Part shown: piece after piece, positions 6,001 to 18,000 of the stretch | Layout of the letters: the number at the start of each line of letters is the position of its first letter | Position numbering within the stretch: position 1 is the first letter of the stretch | Source: Ruditapes philippinarum | Lineage: Eukaryota | Length of the DNA stretch: 64,000 bases | Direction: 5' to 3' | NCBI RefSeq assembly: GCF_026571515.1 | Contig: NW_026861373.1 | Span: forward strand, 1 to 64,000 | Made by a program: the position numbers

Positions 6001-9000
6001 GAAGCACTCGTTATGACACATTGTCGCATTGCGTTATTGACAGATGTTGCCGAATGCGATGGGGAACCATGGGTTTGTGAAAATGGGATATGCAAACAAT
6101 CTTTAAACGAACATGTTTGCCAATGCAACCCAGGATTTGTGATTGATGGGGAAACTGGAAGATGTATAGGTACATAAAAAGGCTACTCCTATCAATTCTA
6201 TGCATTCATATTAGTAAGAGGGACTTAATAAACTTTAATTCTCTGTTGCATACACTGTATACTGAAAATGTTGCAAGCTTTTTTCACATTGTAGAAAAAG
6301 TATTTGAAATTCAAATCGTTATTGAAGTTAAAGAGTATCATTACATTCGAGTAATCAGTTAGTATTTCATAAATAGAAATAAAGTTAAATACTTTTAGTT
6401 ACGTCTTATTCGAACTGTATTGTACATATTTGAATGTTACACCTTGGCCAAAGAGGTGATTATGACTGCTTTTGTGTATGTAAACACAACAGCTTGTAAT
6501 ATTTTTTAATTAATGGTGTGCTCCCATAAACTAAAATTCATCTCTTATTTATATGTACTATTAATTGCTTAATATGTTGATTCTTTTAACCAGTAAGTTG
6601 TGTACGGTCAGTGATTTGTTTTCGCTTTACATGAATATTGACGAGTAAATTTCAATCTCAGGATCAGATGTGACCCCCCAAACAGAACCTTTAGCAACGG
6701 GAATCATCTTTGTTATTGTTACCTGTGTGATATTTGGTATGTATCATTCGCATTTACATTTTTTTTTTCGAACGTACTCATCAGATTCAGACAAGTGCTT
6801 TTAAAAGCATGTTCTACATTAAATTAAGAATTAAACCATTGATAGCAATTTAAAATATTTTTTGTATGATATGTAAAATTCAAATATGAATTCAAAAATA
6901 AAAAGAAAATATATGTCGACGTGTTGGTATATGTACAATTCCGTGCTAAACGTATATCTAAAAACTGTCAAAATAACCACAATTTCAAAAACAAACTTTT
7001 ATAATTTTTTATACTTTTCCAAAGCAATCAAAATATGGAAATTTCATGACCAGTTTCCACATTACTTTTTTGGCGAAATGATATAAAAAAAATTCCCTCA
7101 AATATGCGGAAATAAATATGTATGACAAAAAGTATAACCTGTCTTTCTTATTTCTGACTTGAAAAACAACAAATTTTGAAAAATGTTATTATTATTTTGG
7201 TGTTATTTTTTTAAACAGAGTATAAAATAAATATACAGTCATTAAAAAAAAAATAATCAGATATTGATTTATTATTTTTGTCAGGTTCACATTCTTAAAA
7301 AATTAAATGCTACATGTAAACTTCCAAAATCTAACAGGAAAATTATTGAAATGTATTACAGGAATATATATTTCATCATAAGAATGAATAACTCTATCCT
7401 TTGATTCTGTAAAAAAACAATAATCTGAACCCATTCGTTACAGAATGAGTTTTTCATGTTTCTTAACTCAGCAAAAATACAAAAATGCAAAAAAGAGAAA
7501 TCAATGTATAAATAAACATTAATTCTGCACATAAATGAAGATATCGAAAACTGTTTTCATACAATTTTCAATTTGTTTTATATATTAAAGGTAAAATTGT
7601 GAATTCAAAAAGACAAAGAAAAAATATATGTTGACATGATAGATTATTTGTAAACGGGCAGTTTCGATGTTTACCACATATGCTCACTGTCAAAACGACC
7701 GCGCTTTCTTTAGAAATAGTTGTGTTGTACACAATGCATTCAATTTGTTATATAACCCAAAAATGAGGAAATATAAATTATTTAGAATATTCATAACCCG
7801 TATATATATATATTATTTGTAAAAGTCACGACATAAGTCTTTTTCCATCAAACTGAATGATATATTGACAAAAAATAAACATTTAATGAGAATGAAAGTC
7901 CGGGTTGACTGAAGTGAAAAGAAATCAGAGAAAAGAACTTCATATTTTAATCTTTAAATTTTTAACGATTTCTAATTATTTTCAGTTTGTTTGATGACCA
8001 TTATAACTGTGTTTTGCACTCCAAAAAAATGCAAGTATAATATTATTTCTATATTTATTACATTTAAATATGCAATTCGGTTCTATTCGGCACTTAAAAC
8101 TGTACAAGGGGCGTAATAATTTAGAACTTTTCAATTATCTATGATCATGAAGAGATAAAAATGGACCAAGTCTTTAATTTACATATTTTTGTTGACAGAA
8201 ATGTACTTTATAATTGAATCAATTTTGCAGTTAATTCTTTAAGGGTTTTTAATTCTTAGCTTAGATTATCAACTGAAAGTACGTTATTTCCTTTATGTAT
8301 CAACTGACAAAGCTAATAAAGCGAAACATGTATTGATATCTAAATTTGTGTTAGTTTTGATATATTTATCCTATAATCAACTGGTACGCATTCTTACAAT
8401 GTATGCATATCAAAACCGTTGTTCTCAATTAAACGGCACACTTATTTGCAATGATTGTAGTCAATATCATGAAGCTTACATGTCTTGGTGATTTATGTGA
8501 TTCTTCTTTATAAAATTATTATTTGTACATGCTGGTAAATGTGCTACATCGTTTAAGAAATCATTTTAAACAGTTCGAAAACTTAAATCAATGTAAAGCT
8601 ATCAACCTATGATATAAATGTCACGTGTAATTGATTAAAACAATATTATTTGATTGTATAGAAAACTATATTTCAAAACAGGTAAACCATCGGGTGAATT
8701 AGAAGACGGAAACTCTTCTCAGCATGATATCTCTTCATCTGACACAGGTACTAATTTAATATGTTATTTAACATGTTGTTTACATTTGTAAAATATTTAT
8801 TCAAAGACTTGTTTTCTATCACAGATAATACTTAATTTCATTTCCCAAGAAAATTGATGACAAAGATGATTTCTATTTTATTTGGATTTTTTCTTTATAT
8901 AAATAAATAGTATAGACTTTCCGATCTACAATTTAAATTTCGCTAGATATTGGTTGGCTACTTATGAGATGCAACTGATATTTCACAAAAAAACAGATCC

Positions 9001-15000: not shown

Positions 15001-18000
15001 TTTTCTCATAGGTTATGGTAATAAGAACAACCCAAATGAAAAACATTCTGATAAATGTATCATAATCGGAGAGGACCCTTTTAATACAAGGTATAGGGAG
15101 GCCCTAGCAAGCTTGCATCAAAATGCAGAGGTGTACAAAAATGACATACAAGAACGAGGATTTGATACATCCTCTGTAGATCGGGGATATTATGATGTTG
15201 AAAACGAAAGGTTATTTAAATTTGATTGCTTTTTGGAAAAAGGTTCATCAGGTGCCCCAGTTATTACAAATGAAGTAAATTCACCAAAGGTGATAGGCTT
15301 ATTTATAGGTGGTAAGCCAGATTTTTTCTATGAATTGTCTGACATGCAACAAGCCGCGTTTGAAAGGAAATATTTATTTGAGGTTGGAGTAAAAATGAAT
15401 TGGATATACCAAAGAATGGAAAGGGAAGACCCGGACCTTGCTTCTGAAATATTTCCTACAAATTAAAAAATAACAGAACATGAAGTCTTGTTTCAGATAT
15501 TAAAAAAGAAACAATTTCATCAGATTTTTGAATTTGTATTCCAATAATAAATACATTCTTGTATGTCTTTATTATGATTTCTTTTCTATGTATTATTGTT
15601 TGATTTTATTAACCTTTCAATTGCATACTGATTACACGGTTAATGCACACAATATATTAATCTTCGATAAATGATCGTTTAACTTCGTGAGATGTACTCA
15701 GTAAGATTTGATTGAATTAAATTTGTTTCTATGAAATAGCTGTACTGACCGTTATAGCGCAATAGGGGAAACTACCGGTTTATATCTTCAAAATGTCCCA
15801 TCTGTTGTAAGATCTAGATCGCGTTTGTCTATGCTTTTTTATTTATATTCTCCACATTATTGAAAGTATGATTGTTTTTCTTTTTAATTTTTAATGTGTT
15901 TTGCACTTATTTTGGCAAAGACAATATACTTTTTAAATGGCATGGTTTAAGAATTTAAATTTAAATCAATAAAATTCAATACAAAACAAACAAATCTGTG
16001 TTTTTAAGTTGTTCCATATCCGTGTAGACTATTTTGCAAGCCCTAGTCATTAAAACATACTTCAAGAATCAAGAATAGTGTGAATTATCAAAACATTTGT
16101 CATATACTACAAATTTATTCTCGTAATCTATATGGACAGAACCAAAGTGGTATCGAATATTTAGATGTGTGCTTTAATGTTATCATAATTGACAGGTCAA
16201 TAAAAGCAGACTATACCGAAGCAAAATGATATTTAAACTCTTGTTTTAGATTTATAAAATATGAGGATTTAAAGTATTCGACACTTTTATCATTTTCATA
16301 AATGACATAAAAATCAGTCAAAAATATTTCATGATTTTATGTAAGTTCTATGAAGTCAAGGGATACAATTATTCCGTTAAACATTCGCTTCAATAACAAA
16401 TAATAGGCAATTTTCAATCATTATCGTCATCATGGCAGCATCGGCGATGATGACGACAAAAAGCACAACAACAATTTGATAATTTGATACAACAACATAC
16501 ATGCATACATAAAGGTTGTTAATACATGCTCCATACCATAAACATTCATTTTATACTGTGCTTACAAAATGATAATAAAACTATTTCATTTATTTTTTAG
16601 AGTAAAAATCAGATTAAGTCTTCAAACCTCGATTAAATTGGTGTAAATTGATTTTAAAAAAATACATTTTGAAGTACTTTTTTTTACGGTAATCATTAAC
16701 ATTTTAAATTTTAACCTTTTCTGAGCCCGAATTTAACTTTGAAGTAAGGAAAGGCCACCACCTTTATCACAAAATAACATTTTCCCTGAAAAAAAATGAA
16801 ATTAATTTTTAGGTTTTTCCTTTTTCCGCAGGTAATTACGGTCAAAAATCAATGGGTAAAATTGCTTAACCGCCCCCCCCCAAAGAAAAAGAAAAAAAAG
16901 AAGACAAAGGGTTTTGGGTTAGGTATGATTAAGCATTTGAAAATATAATTTAAAATAATTCAATTTTAAAAATAAACCAACTTTTTAATTAGTACTTTTC
17001 AAAAATTAGTTAGCAATCCACGTAAGTTAAAAAAATATATTTCCCATTTTAACCCTTCAATTAGGGGTGATTTGTCCTTTTCTGTTTTTGTTTAAAAGAA
17101 AAAAATTTTTAAAAAAGGGGGGGGGGAAAAATTTAGAAAAAAATTTAGATTTGGAATAAAAAGGGGGGCCGGGGCCCCGTTATTAAGGTTCGGGACTGCA
17201 TTGGTGTTTTGCCCCCGGGAACCCCCCCAACCATAAGAGGAAAATTATTAAAATAGGGTAAAAAGGGCCCCGGTGAAAATTTTAAAAATAAAAGGCGGGG
17301 GGGAACAAAAAAAAATTTTTACCCGGGGGGTTTTTAAAAAAAATTTTCATAAATAAAACTTCGCCCCGCGTTCCCGCTAATAAGCGGTTCTTCGCCCCGC
17401 CACCTCGCCAAGCGAAAAGTCGAGAATGAACAAGTTAAAATAGCAGGGGGGCGAAGCGAAACCCGCTTAATAGCGATATCGCAAATAAGCGGGTTTTCGA
17501 TTCGCGCCCCGCCATTTATTTTTTAAATCAGCCATTATAGTCATTTTACAAATTGCGCATGCGCGAAAAAATACTACTTCCGGTCATTTTTTTTCATAGC
17601 AACGGACCGCGTCGTAAAAAGGTCTATACTAAAATTATTCAACCGTTGTTTGATTATTGGGGAAATCGTATTTTATTTTATGAAGGCGTATTTTATCATG
17701 TCTTATTAACATTTTATAAGATAACTTGATGATATTAAATCAATATTATTTTACGACTAGATAGATGAAACATCCAGCTTTTCACAGGTATGGATTAAAT
17801 GAAATATAAAAAACAAGATCAACAAGGAACGCCGTTTAATGAAAACAACTAACCCAGCAACGCAGGACCACCGGCAACGTGAAAATCGTATGAATTACAT
17901 ATACGTTCTGGTTGATACCTCTGTCATATTAAGAAACTTTCTAATCGACTACATGTACATTCTATCGCAGGTGTGATTAATATAGTGTGACTTTAAACAA

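What the first reader, a model, noticed from the sequence alone, without database searches (positions are those of the whole stretch)
6662..15466. Same sensor, different effector: A and B are near-identical up to the EGF exon and then diverge sharply
Seen: exons and even introns align from exon 1 to just past exon 7, and the EGF exon is still close. The TM, linker and protease are only distantly similar and their introns do not align. Junctions from exon 7 onward in A are all phase 1. Inference: a recent gene conversion or exon shuffle grafted one ectodomain onto two old protease tails, giving mix-and-match sensor/effector modules. Sequences around the nucleophile differ (FLEKGSSG, FMGQGLSG, YMAKRLSG), which suggests different substrates.
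Basis: partly seen in the sequence, partly recalled or inferred. Interest (0 to 1): 0.7.

Follow-up and report, generated by a model that had tools for sequence, protein, structure and literature searches.

The report
Mosaic clam receptor-protease gene pair
Two neighbouring Manila clam genes for membrane receptors with an internal FAM111-like protease share a more recently exchanged outer half but keep old, different protease halves; this kind of reshuffling is ordinary, though the receptor family itself seems undescribed.

Summary
In this Manila clam window, gene A (LOC132715424) and gene B (LOC132715423) align collinearly, introns included, from A 15-5489 to B 35097-39118 (74-94% identity). 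The EGF exon is 82% identical. From the TM exon on, only exons match weakly (39.5% aa in the protease) and introns sit at shuffle level.

Silent divergence is 0.24 in exons 1-7, 0.64 in the EGF exon and about 1.3 (saturated) in the protease. "Near-identical" and "same sensor" are overstated: the ectodomains are about 80% identical.

The tails fall in two supported lineages, (A + LOC132720279) and (B + P0005). The 5' half is a patchwork with at least three ages or nearest neighbours. Recurrent interlocus gene conversion or recombination therefore fits better than one clean graft.

The "protease" is a cytoplasmic FAM111-type trypsin-fold domain with intact His-Asp-Ser in A, B and C. Relatives carry the same module behind TNFR, Death/HEPN, Mab-21 and Roc-COR parts. 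Substrate differences are untested.

Mosaic paralogues are ordinary. The receptor-tethered FAM111-like protease family was not found in the literature I searched.

The parts
15..5489 (+). Gene A part of the shared 5' block (exons 1-7 with introns), collinear with B 35097-39118
   Evidence: blastn; MAFFT windows 74-94% identity, then 40-50%; intron-by-intron K 0.064-0.40
90..680 (+). Youngest tract inside the shared block (exon 1, intron 1, exon 2), at least 85% identity in 60-column windows and mostly 90% or more, with older homology on both sides
   Evidence: intron 1 against introns 3+4, Fisher p 7.6e-6
123..282 (+). A exon 1 copy in the window (AG/GT kept). The RefSeq protein P0001 uses a different first coding exon that is not in the window
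   Evidence: 93% nt and 83% aa identity to B exon 2
446..570 (+). A exon 2
   Evidence: dS 0.09 against B
2099..2257 (+). A exon 3
   Evidence: dS 0.28
3041..3341 (+). A exon 4: signal-like hydrophobic stretch and first cysteine-rich part of the ectodomain. Here B is closer to LOC132720279 than to A
   Evidence: (B=P2 at 18 columns, A=B at 8, A=P2 at 2)
4189..4533 (+). A exon 5, core of the cysteine-rich ectodomain
   Evidence: 89% aa identity to B, dN/dS 0.13; only A, B and P0002 were found with it
4722..4800 (+). A exon 6
5355..5419 (+). A exon 7, last exon inside the alignable block
6044..6169 (+). A exon 8, EGF-like module, phase 1-1, with intermediate divergence
   Evidence: Pfam EGF-type matches just under the cut-offs; 82% nt identity, dS 0.64 on 21 silent sites
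6662..6736 (+). A exon 9, first part of the transmembrane helix. The coding breakpoint falls here
7986..8030 (+). A exon 10, end of the TM helix and basic stop-transfer residues (GC donor)
8682..8747 (+). A exon 11, linker
11719..11787 (+). A exon 12, linker. It is shortened by use of an inner acceptor, downstream of an in-frame stop at 11706-11708
14079..14276 (+). A exon 13: Phe-Lys-Lys motif (14105-14113), N-terminal helix and catalytic His of the protease domain
14760..15466 (+). A exon 14: catalytic Asp and Ser (FLEKGSSG at 15230-15253) and the stop codon
22038..22167 (+). Gene C (P0006, 267 aa, protease only), coding exon 1 with His
22478..23151 (+). Gene C exon 2 with Asp and Ser (YMAKRLSG at 22918-22941). 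It has Arg where the family has Gly two residues before the Ser
28800..28835 (+). B exon 1 (start codon), 6.4 kb upstream of the shared block
35097..39118 (+). Gene B part of the shared 5' block. B exons 2-8 are at 35209-35368, 35536-35660, 36222-36380, 36798-37092, 37787-38131, 38341-38419 and 38991-39049
   Evidence: all 14 exon boundaries have AG/GT at the aligned A positions
40486..40602 (+). B exon 9, EGF-like module
41590..41676 (+). B exon 10, TM helix part 1
43216..43257 (+). B exon 11, TM end and basic residues
43449..43514 (+). B exon 12, linker
44717..44886 (+). B exon 13, linker with no counterpart in the A model
45400..45454 (+). B exon 14, linker
46718..46816 (+). B exon 15, linker
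47202..47396 (+). B exon 16: Cys-Lys-Lys (47225-47233) in place of Phe-Lys-Lys, helix, catalytic His
47684..48381 (+). B exon 17: Asp and Ser (FMGQGLSG at 48142-48165) and the stop codon
51938..52620 (+). Relic D: decayed copies of the end of B exon 15 and of B exon 16 (71% nt). It has a frameshift near 52519 and Tyr in place of the catalytic His. No last exon was found

Best explanation
The window holds a tandem cluster of Manila clam (Ruditapes philippinarum) genes of one family. The proteins look like single-pass receptors. Each has a cysteine-rich ectodomain, one EGF-like module, a transmembrane helix, a poorly conserved linker and a cytoplasmic FAM111-type trypsin-fold serine-protease domain.

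Genes A (LOC132715424) and B (LOC132715423) are mosaics of two histories. Their tails, from the TM exon to the stop, belong to two separate older lineages: (A + LOC132720279) and (B + P0005).

Their 5' halves have been exchanged among paralogues by non-allelic recombination. This covers exons 1-7 with introns, and probably the EGF exon. I see three layers:
- an older graft or long conversion, with silent divergence about 0.2-0.4;
- a later short conversion tract over exons 1-2, about 0.06;
- a different nearest paralogue in exon 4.

The outcome is similar ectodomains (about 80% identical, not identical) wired to two divergent but catalytically intact proteases.

What is shown: the anatomy, the two ages, the patchwork, the fold and the catalytic triad.

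What is inferred: ligand binding outside brings the tails together; the protease is switched on by dimerisation as in FAM111A; and it may cut itself free at a conserved Phe-Lys-Lys site just before the domain.
For: Identity of the genes: single-exon searches return 100% matches to the RefSeq proteins of LOC132715424 and LOC132715423 on one 160,775-nt contig. Every exon maps with AG/GT or AG/GC.

Two ages:
- NG86 dS is 0.24 in exons 1-7, 0.64 in the EGF exon and 1.28 in the protease.
- The third-position breakpoint falls at the start of the TM exon; 0 of 2000 permutations reach it.
- Introns 1-6 align at 69-94% identity. Introns after A 5489 are at shuffle level.

Patchwork:
- Intron 1 has K 0.064 against 0.23 in introns 3+4 (Fisher p 7.6e-6) and 0.28-0.40 in introns 5-6 (p 0.0098).
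- Three-way columns favour A=B in exon 2 (16 against 5 and 1), B=P0002 in exon 4 (18 against 8 and 2) and A=B in exon 5 (11 against 6 and 4). The homogeneity test gives p 1e-4.
- In exons 9-14, A=P0002 holds at 136 columns against 15 and 25.

Tail lineages:
- The careful ML tree (42 rows) gives (A,P0002) 99/98 and (B,P0005) 100/99. Their union is 98/89, with Mercenaria P0003 outside at 99/98.
- The AU test rejects A+B as sisters, p 5.5e-5.
- In the ectodomain, A, B and P0002 are a tight unresolved trio with path lengths 0.27-0.33.

Protease:
- Trypsin_2 is above Pfam's cut-off for B (30.6), C (28.5) and P0002 (30.2).
- His, Asp and Ser are kept in A, B and C.
- The model of C has pLDDT 94.8.
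- The best PDB fold matches are the FAM111A protease domain, E 3e-12, TM 0.62-0.75.
- The family profile hits FAM111A at 1.7e-16 over the whole domain. The next hit is 6.6e-6 and local.

Topology: there is one hydrophobic peak (KD 3.0-3.1) followed by KK or RR, and 24 Cys in each ectodomain.

Mechanism lead: FAM111A is dimerisation-dependent through its N-terminal helix and autocleaves at Phe334 just before the domain (PMC10920703, abstract and passages). The clam family has a helix at the same place. An aromatic or Leu residue followed by Lys-Lys occurs in 23 of the 25 rows that cover the site.
Against: - The third paralogue (P0002) could only be compared as protein, so the exon 4 pattern could in part reflect selection rather than exchange.
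- The EGF exon is ambiguous. Its dS of 0.64 rests on 21 silent sites, and it sits between unalignable introns.
- The left edge of the block lies at the window's edge. Identity falls to 57-73% in A 1-112, so the extent upstream is unknown.
- B's tail is a long branch (end branch 0.49 against 0.26 for P0005). This inflates the A-B tail distance. dS above 1 is saturated, so the age ratio is only a lower bound.
- In the ectodomain tree the best topology (A,P0002), 83/85, agrees with the tail tree, and no alternative is rejected (p 0.136). The incongruence therefore rests on branch lengths, silent sites and per-exon patterns, not on a rejected topology.
- No reads, transcripts or biochemical data were available. 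Dimerisation, autocleavage, ligand and substrates are all untested.
- A's Trypsin_2 score (25.8) is under the cut-off.
Confidence: 0.7

Rival explanations
1. There was one event only. A partial tandem duplication or an unequal crossover (Lepore-type) fused the 5' half of an A-like gene to the 3' half of an older B-type gene. Everything since then is ordinary divergence.
For: There is a single sharp right-hand boundary in intron 7 or at the TM exon. The locus clearly makes partial copies: the tail-only gene C and the relic D. All junctions from exon 7 on are phase 1, so any cut in these introns stays in frame.
Against: Neutral divergence inside the block is not uniform. It is 0.064 in intron 1 against 0.23 and 0.28-0.40 further on, and the 5' flank (A 1-119) is again at 0.29. 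The nearest paralogue also changes between exons 2, 4 and 5. One event cannot give both patterns.
Confidence: 0.17
2. There was a whole-gene duplication with no exchange. The ectodomain is simply conserved, and the tail of B evolved fast.
For: B's tail is a long branch. P0005 is 50% identical to A while B is 37%. Exons 5-6 are under strong constraint, with dN/dS 0.13-0.18.
Against: Silent sites and introns show the same contrast. dS is 0.24 against 1.28, and introns 1-6 are at 69-94% identity while later introns are at shuffle level. P0002 is A-like over its whole length but groups with neither copy consistently in the ectodomain. The AU test rejects A+B as tail sisters.
Confidence: 0.04
3. 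It is an assembly artefact. A and B would be divergent haplotypes or a chimeric join, placed in tandem across the N run at 27204-27983.
For: A run of N lies between genes C and B. Bivalve genomes are very heterozygous (general knowledge). No reads could be examined.
Against: Divergence of 6-30% in introns and a wholly different 3' half are far beyond allelic differences. Both genes have complete, splice-consistent RefSeq models on the same contig. Both flanks of the N run match one other block of the window in the same order. A third locus on another contig has the A-type arrangement over its whole length.
Confidence: 0.05

Closest known systems
FAM111A / FAM111B serine proteases (vertebrates; FAM111A-like proteins of coral and lancelet)
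   Same: The protease domain is the best sequence-profile match (E 1.7e-16, whole domain) and the best fold match (8s9k/8s9l). It is intracellular, has a His-Asp-Ser triad, an N-terminal helix before the first strand and a C-terminal helical extension. A hydrophobic residue sits just upstream of the domain, where FAM111A autocleaves at Phe334 (PMC10920703 passages). The review PMC9798293 (passages) notes marine-invertebrate FAM111A-like proteins without UBL domains.
   Different: There are no UBL domains and no PIP box. Here the domain is tethered behind a transmembrane helix and a cysteine-rich ectodomain. Identity to FAM111A is only 16-18%. Activity, dimerisation and chymotrypsin-like preference are untested.
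Receptor-like lineage-specific expansions in bivalves (cysteine-rich ectodomain, TM helix, DED and TRADD-N), Kaur et al. 2021, PMC8195603
   Same: These are bivalve-specific, receptor-like, single-pass proteins with a cysteine-rich outside and a variable intracellular signalling or effector part. Architectures differ between close species (passages read).
   Different: The intracellular part here is a protease, not DED/TRADD-N. In the passages I read, trypsin-like effectors are described for bacterial systems only. The supplementary tables could not be opened.
TNF-receptor family death receptors
   Same: One relative (P0029) has a true TNFR_c6 ectodomain (E 1.4e-18), a TM helix and this same protease in the place where death receptors carry a Death domain. 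The Atlas structure search of A's ectodomain lists TNFR-type clusters.
   Different: A and B have no Pfam TNFR match. The Atlas TM-scores are about 0.3 (a lead only), and my own fold of exon 5 failed (pLDDT 45).
Type II transmembrane serine proteases (TMPRSS2, TMPRSS11D, enteropeptidase)
   Same: They are membrane-anchored S1-fold proteases and are second-rank fold matches.
   Different: The topology is opposite. Those enzymes have the protease outside the cell, rich in disulfides and activated by zymogen cleavage. Here the domain follows the TM helix and its basic residues, so it should be cytoplasmic.
Hybrid and partly homogenised tandem paralogues (haemoglobin Lepore, opsin, KIR and MHC genes); recalled from general knowledge, no call
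   Same: There are tandem paralogues, a sharp boundary in an intron, one part young and the other old, and short conversion tracts inside.
   Different: These examples are recalled, not tested here, and I saw no case for this family in print.

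Membership tests
Pfam Trypsin_2 (PF13365), PA-clan S1 serine peptidases | Score at or above Pfam's gathering cut-off (27.6 bits) | tested here: met
   B 30.6, C 28.5, P0002 30.2. A is 25.8, just under the cut-off (E 2e-5). Single last exons alone score below it.
Pfam Trypsin_2 (PF13365), PA-clan S1 serine peptidases | Catalytic His, Asp and Ser in that order | tested here: met
   Alignment columns show A MTDFHV / NDCAVL / GSSGAP, B ITAFHV / YDFAIL / GLSGGP and C MTAYHV / ADIAIL / RLSGGS. 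Asp and Ser are kept in at least 90% of the 40 rows.
Pfam Trypsin_2 (PF13365), PA-clan S1 serine peptidases | Double beta-barrel chymotrypsin fold | tested here: met
   The model of C has pLDDT 94.8 and pTM 0.91. At least 500 PDB matches have E <= 0.001, and every match listed is an S1-fold protease or protease-like domain. A and B were not modelled themselves.
FAM111 serine proteases | Protease domain closer to FAM111 than to other S1 families | tested here: met
   Profile search gives FAM111A at 1.7e-16 over profile positions 43-330, against 6.6e-6 (local) for the next family. The six best Foldseek matches are all FAM111A chains.
FAM111 serine proteases | Dimerisation through the N-terminal helix that switches the enzyme on | tested here: inconclusive
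   A helix (residues 2-9 of C) precedes the first strand in the model. No usable test of self-association was obtained.
FAM111 serine proteases | Two N-terminal ubiquitin-like domains (vertebrate FAM111A/B) and a PIP box (mammalian FAM111A) | tested here: not met
   Pfam finds only EGF-type and Trypsin_2 matches in A, B and P0002. The N-terminal part is an ectodomain plus TM helix. The genes are therefore FAM111-like in their protease domain, not FAM111 orthologues.
FAM111 serine proteases | Autocleavage after Phe just before the domain; chymotrypsin-like P1 preference | not testable with these tools
   Of the 25 rows that cover the site, 19 have Phe, 3 Leu, 1 Tyr and 2 Cys, each followed by Lys-Lys. 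A has Phe and B has Cys. C's reading frame has Leu there, upstream of its annotated start codon. Cleavage itself needs an experiment.
Type I single-pass membrane receptor | One TM helix with the C-terminal part inside the cell | tested here: met
   There is one Kyte-Doolittle peak of 3.0-3.1 in each of A, B and P0002, followed by KK or RR. Orientation is inferred from the positive-inside rule.
Type I single-pass membrane receptor | N-terminal signal peptide | tested here: inconclusive
   Relatives P0010, P0011 and P0020 have an N-terminal hydrophobic stretch. In the RefSeq models of A and B the matching stretch (start of exon 4) lies 150-160 residues from the start. Exons 1-2 evolve with dN/dS near 1, so the true start may be the Met in exon 4.
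EGF-like domain | Pfam EGF-type match above the cut-off | tested here: inconclusive
   The A exon 8 translation scores EGF 21.3 against a 21.5 cut-off and EGF_3 24.1 against 28.5. The homologous module of Mercenaria P0003 passes (EGF 23.9).
Interlocus gene conversion between tandem paralogues | A tract of low silent divergence bounded on both sides by more diverged homologous sequence | tested here: met
   A 90-680 is at about 93% identity. The flanks are at 76% (A 1-119) and 80-85% (introns 2-4).
Interlocus gene conversion between tandem paralogues | The nearest paralogue changes along the gene | tested here: met
   Exons 2, 4 and 5 and exons 9-14 favour different pairs. Homogeneity is rejected with p 1e-4 inside the ectodomain and p 3e-16 between ectodomain and tail. 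This is protein level only for the third locus.
Interlocus gene conversion between tandem paralogues | Donor and recipient identified; tracts called by GENECONV or GARD on DNA of all copies | not tested
   The DNA of LOC132720279 is not in the window and I did not fetch it.

The most novel reading that the evidence does not exclude
FAM111-type proteases may be a general cell-autonomous effector module of clam (and wider marine-invertebrate) innate immunity. In this reading the module is plugged directly behind surface receptors (TNFR-type and this new cysteine-rich ectodomain) and behind cytosolic sensors (Death/HEPN, cGAS-like Mab-21, Roc-COR). It would be activated by induced proximity and released by self-cleavage at the conserved Phe-Lys-Lys site. 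The A/B pair would then show the wiring being rewritten in real time: one ligand-binding half kept in step by conversion while it drives two different proteases, one of which (B) has lost the putative self-release residue.
Probability: 0.25. Interest if true: 0.75.

Novelty: new variant of a known kind. Interest (0 to 1): 0.5.

Why it matters
The mosaic itself is textbook gene-family evolution. Its value is as a clean, datable example in a bivalve immune-like cluster.

The family matters more. The only studied FAM111 proteases are nuclear enzymes of vertebrates that restrict viruses, kill cells when overactive and need dimerisation (PMC10920703 and PMC7534640 abstracts). A version tethered under a receptor, and the same module behind Death, HEPN, Mab-21, Roc-COR and TNFR parts, points to an older role as an induced-proximity effector.

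This gives simple testable constructs: forced dimerisation of the cytoplasmic tail, and mutation of the Phe-Lys-Lys site. It also offers a natural pair (A and B) with similar outsides and different insides for swap experiments in clam or heterologous cells.

Tried and rejected
- B's tail as a copy of gene C's tail, with the genes between them deleted. Rejected: B-C identity is 32.6% in the last exon, lower than A-B at 39.0%.
- The match A 12966-13373 / B 42526-42948 as surviving intron homology. Rejected: it lies in intron 12 of A but intron 10 of B, so it is an interspersed repeat.
- Fold of ectodomain exon 5 with a 9-row alignment. The model had pLDDT 45.2, so I ran no fold search on it.
- ESM Atlas search of A residues 163-414. 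Feature scores were at most 0.77, and the structure rows were TNFR-type at TM about 0.3. This is a lead only.
- Complex prediction with two copies of C (collected). The verdict was 'no answer', score 0.00, and the alignment was not used by the tool. This is no evidence either way.
The species of P0005-P0059 are therefore unknown, and 'bivalve-wide' or 'mollusc-wide' cannot be claimed.
- My first exon-mapping script failed. The cause is that P0001's first 56 residues are not encoded at 100% in the window.
- Literature: six searches found no paper on FAM111-like or Trypsin_2 receptor proteins of molluscs. 'FAM111' together with 'oyster' gave 0 papers. I read only listings and abstracts beyond the four papers cited.
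I did not use genome contigs because it holds bacteria and archaea only.

Full report
**Source and rules kept**

The window is AT-rich (GC 0.17-0.38 in 2-kb windows) with one N run at 27204-27983, which I left untouched. Single-exon protein searches identify it as Ruditapes philippinarum (Manila clam). The last exon of gene A is 100% identical to 'uncharacterized protein LOC132715424' (P0001, 842 aa). That search passed 3 proteins out of 697 candidates. The last exon of gene B is 100% identical to 'LOC132715423 isoform X2' (P0004, 928 aa). That search passed 1 protein out of 495 candidates. Both lie on one 160,775-nt contig.

It is not a human contig. Every search that used window sequence used one exon. 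Whole-protein steps used the public records that those searches returned.

**Anatomy**

I mapped the public proteins back on the window.

- Gene A has 14 exons in the window: 123-282, 446-570, 2099-2257, 3041-3341, 4189-4533, 4722-4800, 5355-5419, 6044-6169 (EGF-like), 6662-6736 and 7986-8030 (TM helix), 8682-8747 and 11719-11787 (linker), and 14079-14276 and 14760-15466 (protease).
- Gene B has 17 exons from 28800 to 48381.
- The finding's interval is exactly A's TM exon to its stop codon.
- From the exon 7/8 junction on, every junction in A is phase 1.
- In B the same holds, except that two linker exons (44717-44886 and 45400-45454) share a phase-0 junction between them.
The third belongs to gene C (22038-22167 and 22478-23151). 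Gene C is a 267-aa protease-only gene (P0006).

**Checking the observation**

- Self-blastn shows four collinear blocks from A 15-5489 to B 35097-39118, at 87.1, 79.3, 79.3 and 77.2% identity. The EGF exon is an island at 82.3%.
- A global alignment gives 74-94% identity in 300-column windows up to about A 5539, then 40-50%.
- A more sensitive blastn of A 5420-15600 against B 39050-48500 gives 8 matches. These are the first 70 nt of intron 7, the EGF exon, the end of a linker exon, three pieces of protease exons, and two adjoining pieces of a repeat. The repeat lies in intron 12 of A but intron 10 of B.
- Three 3' intron pairs align at 47.2-47.6% identity, against 43-49% for shuffles. The intron 6 control gives 76.8% against 47.4%.

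'Near-identical' is too strong.

**Two ages**

I summed Nei-Gojobori counts per exon, with no concatenation.

| Region | Codons | aa identity | dS | dN |
|---|---|---|---|---|
| Exons 1-7 | 403 | 82.1% | 0.24 | 0.087 |
| EGF exon | 38 | 73.7% | 0.64 | not reported here |
| TM plus linker | 77 | 24.7% | not reported here | not reported here |
| Protease | 294 | 39.5% | 1.28 (saturated) | 0.50 |

A maximum chi-square scan of third codon positions (812 codons, 259 differences) puts the break 8 codons into the TM exon, at 0.158 against 0.518. 0 of 2000 permutations reach that value.

**Not one graft but a patchwork**

Divergence of aligned intron sequence:

| Region | K |
|---|---|
| 5' flank (A 1-119) | 0.29 |
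| Intron 1 | 0.064 |
| Intron 2 | 0.17 |
| Intron 3 | 0.23 |
| Intron 4 | 0.23 |
| Intron 5 | 0.40 |
| Intron 6 | 0.28 |

- Intron 1 differs from introns 3+4 (Fisher p 7.6e-6). Introns 3+4 differ from introns 5+6 (p 0.0098).
- A young tract runs from about A 90 to 680, with older homology on both sides.
- A second break inside exon 5 is supported more weakly: 25 of 2000 permutations reach it.

The third paralogue with this ectodomain is LOC132720279 (P0002, on another contig). Only A, B and P0002 were found with ectodomain exon 5, which is 3 of 14 candidates. It shows switching neighbours at the protein level:

| Region | A=B | A=P0002 | B=P0002 |
|---|---|---|---|
| Exon 2 | 16 | 5 | 1 |
| Exon 4 | 8 | 2 | 18 |
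| Exon 5 | 11 | 6 | 4 |
| Exons 9-14 | 15 | 136 | 25 |

Homogeneity is rejected inside the ectodomain (p 1e-4) and between ectodomain and tail (p 3e-16).

**Trees**

A phmmer search of 1.84 billion representatives with B's last exon found only 57 proteins at E <= 0.001. The best is P0005, a 243-aa fragment from an unnamed source, at 55% identity.

A domain HMM hit 57 of the 59 proteins held. For the tree I kept the 42 that cover the domain (profile start <= 100, end >= 285, score > 100). I dropped 15 fragments or weak rows.

The careful ML tree gives:
- (A,P0002) at 99/98;
- (B,P0005) at 100/99;
- their union at 98/89;
- Mercenaria P0003 outside at 99/98;
- (C,P0007) next at 98/93.

Path lengths are A-B 1.27, A-P0002 0.48 and A-P0003 0.97.

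Holding A and B together costs 47.2 log-likelihood units (AU p 5.5e-5). That group was named after I had seen the tree.

In the ectodomain (7 rows), A, B and P0002 are 0.27-0.33 apart and unresolved. The best tree has (A,P0002) at 83/85. The alternatives A+B and B+P0002 are not rejected (p 0.136 each). Mercenaria is 3.3-3.6 away, on a long branch.

One point against a simple reading of 'two very old tails': B is a long branch. P0005 is 50% identical to A and P0002, whereas B is 37% and 43%.

**What the proteins are**

- Pfam gives Trypsin_2 above its cut-off for B, C and P0002, and just below it for A. It gives EGF-type matches near their cut-offs.
- The ectodomain has no Pfam family.
- His, Asp and Ser are present in A, B and C. 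C has Arg where the family has Gly two residues before the Ser.
- A model of C built with a 40-row family alignment is confident (pLDDT 94.8).
- Its six best PDB matches are the FAM111A protease domain (E 3e-12 to 1e-11, TM 0.62-0.75). These rank ahead of TMPRSS enzymes and staphylococcal SplA.
- The family profile finds FAM111A at E 1.7e-16 over the whole domain, including the C-terminal helices. The next family is at 6.6e-6 and matches only around the serine.
- Each of A, B and P0002 has one strong hydrophobic peak followed by KK or RR. The ectodomains of A and B each have 24 Cys.

By the positive-inside rule the protease is cytoplasmic. That orientation is an inference.

**The wider family**

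Among the representatives, the same C-terminal protease follows:
- HEPN_DZIP3 plus Death (P0019, P0035);
- Mab-21 nucleotidyltransferase plus TPR (P0049);
- Roc-COR (P0055);
- a true TNFR_c6 ectodomain plus TM helix (P0029);
- the cysteine-rich ectodomain of A and B, without an EGF module (P0010, P0011, P0020).

**Likely mechanism (inferred)**

FAM111A needs dimerisation through its N-terminal helix. It prefers Phe at P1 and autocleaves at Phe334 just before the domain (PMC10920703, abstract and passages). Its unrestrained activity triggers apoptosis (PMC7534640, abstract).

The clam domain has a helix in the same place. About 22 residues upstream of the first strand it has a conserved motif with Phe-Lys-Lys. 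Of the 25 rows that cover the site, 19 have Phe, 3 Leu, 1 Tyr and 2 Cys. A has Phe and B has Cys. C's reading frame has Leu there, upstream of its annotated start.

I therefore propose that ligand-driven clustering activates the tail, and that the tail may then release itself. Nothing here tests this.

Positions that usually line the pocket do differ between A, B and C, but specificity needs an assay.

**Rivals**

- A single Lepore-type fusion fits the sharp right boundary. It also fits the locus's habit of making partial copies (gene C, relic D). It does not fit the non-uniform neutral divergence or the switching neighbours.
- Whole-gene duplication with a fast-evolving tail is contradicted by silent sites and introns.
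- An assembly artefact cannot be excluded without reads. It is unlikely given the size of the differences, the complete gene models and the third locus.

**Comparison with what is known, and novelty**

- The review PMC9798293 (passages) records FAM111A-like proteins without UBL domains in a coral and a lancelet.
- Kaur et al. (PMC8195603, passages) describe bivalve receptor-like expansions with a cysteine-rich outside, a TM helix and DED/TRADD-N inside. In the passages I read, they place trypsin-like effectors in bacterial systems only.
- Six literature searches gave nothing on this architecture in molluscs.

I rate the A/B mosaic as ordinary in kind. I rate the receptor-tethered FAM111-like protease as a new variant of known kinds.

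**Left open**

- the left edge of the shared block, which is at the window's edge;
- the DNA of the third locus;
- the taxa of the unnamed relatives;
- expression;
- all biochemistry.

Noticed in passing
window 22038-23151: Gene C is a two-exon, protease-only member (P0006, 267 aa) lying between A and B. Its reading frame continues upstream of the annotated Met through the family's conserved motif (GELKKEVDDT). It therefore looks like a 5'-truncated copy of a longer gene. It also has Arg in place of the conserved Gly two residues before the catalytic Ser.
   Followed up: partly
window 51938-52620: Relic D sits downstream of B. It holds decayed copies of the end of B exon 15 and of B exon 16 (71-77% nt identity), with a frameshift near 52519 and Tyr for the catalytic His. 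No last exon was found up to 64000.
   Followed up: partly
window 26121-28705 and 50193-51623: Two collinear blocks are 68-89% identical. The first ends 95 nt before B's first exon and contains the N run. The second lies just upstream of relic D. Either the upstream region was duplicated together with a B-type gene, or this is a repeat. No coding signal was seen in ORFs of 70 aa or more.
   Followed up: partly
window 11649-11789: In A, the long form of the linker exon used by LOC132720279 is closed by an in-frame stop at 11706-11708. The RefSeq model of A starts the exon at an inner acceptor (11719). A's model also lacks any counterpart of most of P0002's long linker, so its protein is 46 residues shorter overall (842 against 888 aa).
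   Followed up: partly
window 123-282: The first 56 residues of the RefSeq protein of A match this exon at only 85% identity, while all other exons are 100%. The model's first coding exon must therefore lie upstream of the window. That exon is like LOC132720279, whereas the splice-competent copy in the window is like B and sits in the youngest conversion tract.
   Followed up: partly
window 14105-14113 (A) and 47225-47233 (B): A conserved Phe-Lys-Lys lies just before the protease domain, at the position where FAM111A autocleaves. Of the 25 family rows that cover the site, 19 have Phe, 3 Leu, 1 Tyr and 2 Cys. A has Phe and B has Cys.
   Followed up: partly
window 12907-13373 and 42439-42948: An interspersed repeat of about 470 nt (74-78% identical) occurs in non-corresponding introns of A and B. 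I did not classify it.
   Followed up: no
window 1305-1920, 39799-40126, 58270-59447: There are three tandem arrays. One has a 156-nt unit x3.9 in A intron 2 and is absent from B. One has a 167-nt unit x2 (93% matches) in B's intron between exon 8 and the EGF exon. One is a 105/147-nt satellite with direct and inverted copies near 58-59.5 kb.
   Followed up: no
window 30300-31260: This is the most GC-rich stretch of the window (0.377 in 30001-32000) and lies inside B's first intron. It has overlapping ORFs of 90-150 aa on both strands. I did not examine it; it may be a decayed mobile element.
   Followed up: no
related proteins P0019, P0035, P0049, P0055, P0029 (not in the window): The same FAM111-like protease module is C-terminal to HEPN_DZIP3 plus Death, Mab-21 plus TPR, Roc-COR and a TNFR_c6 receptor. 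This is a set of architectures typical of innate-immune signalling proteins.
   Followed up: partly
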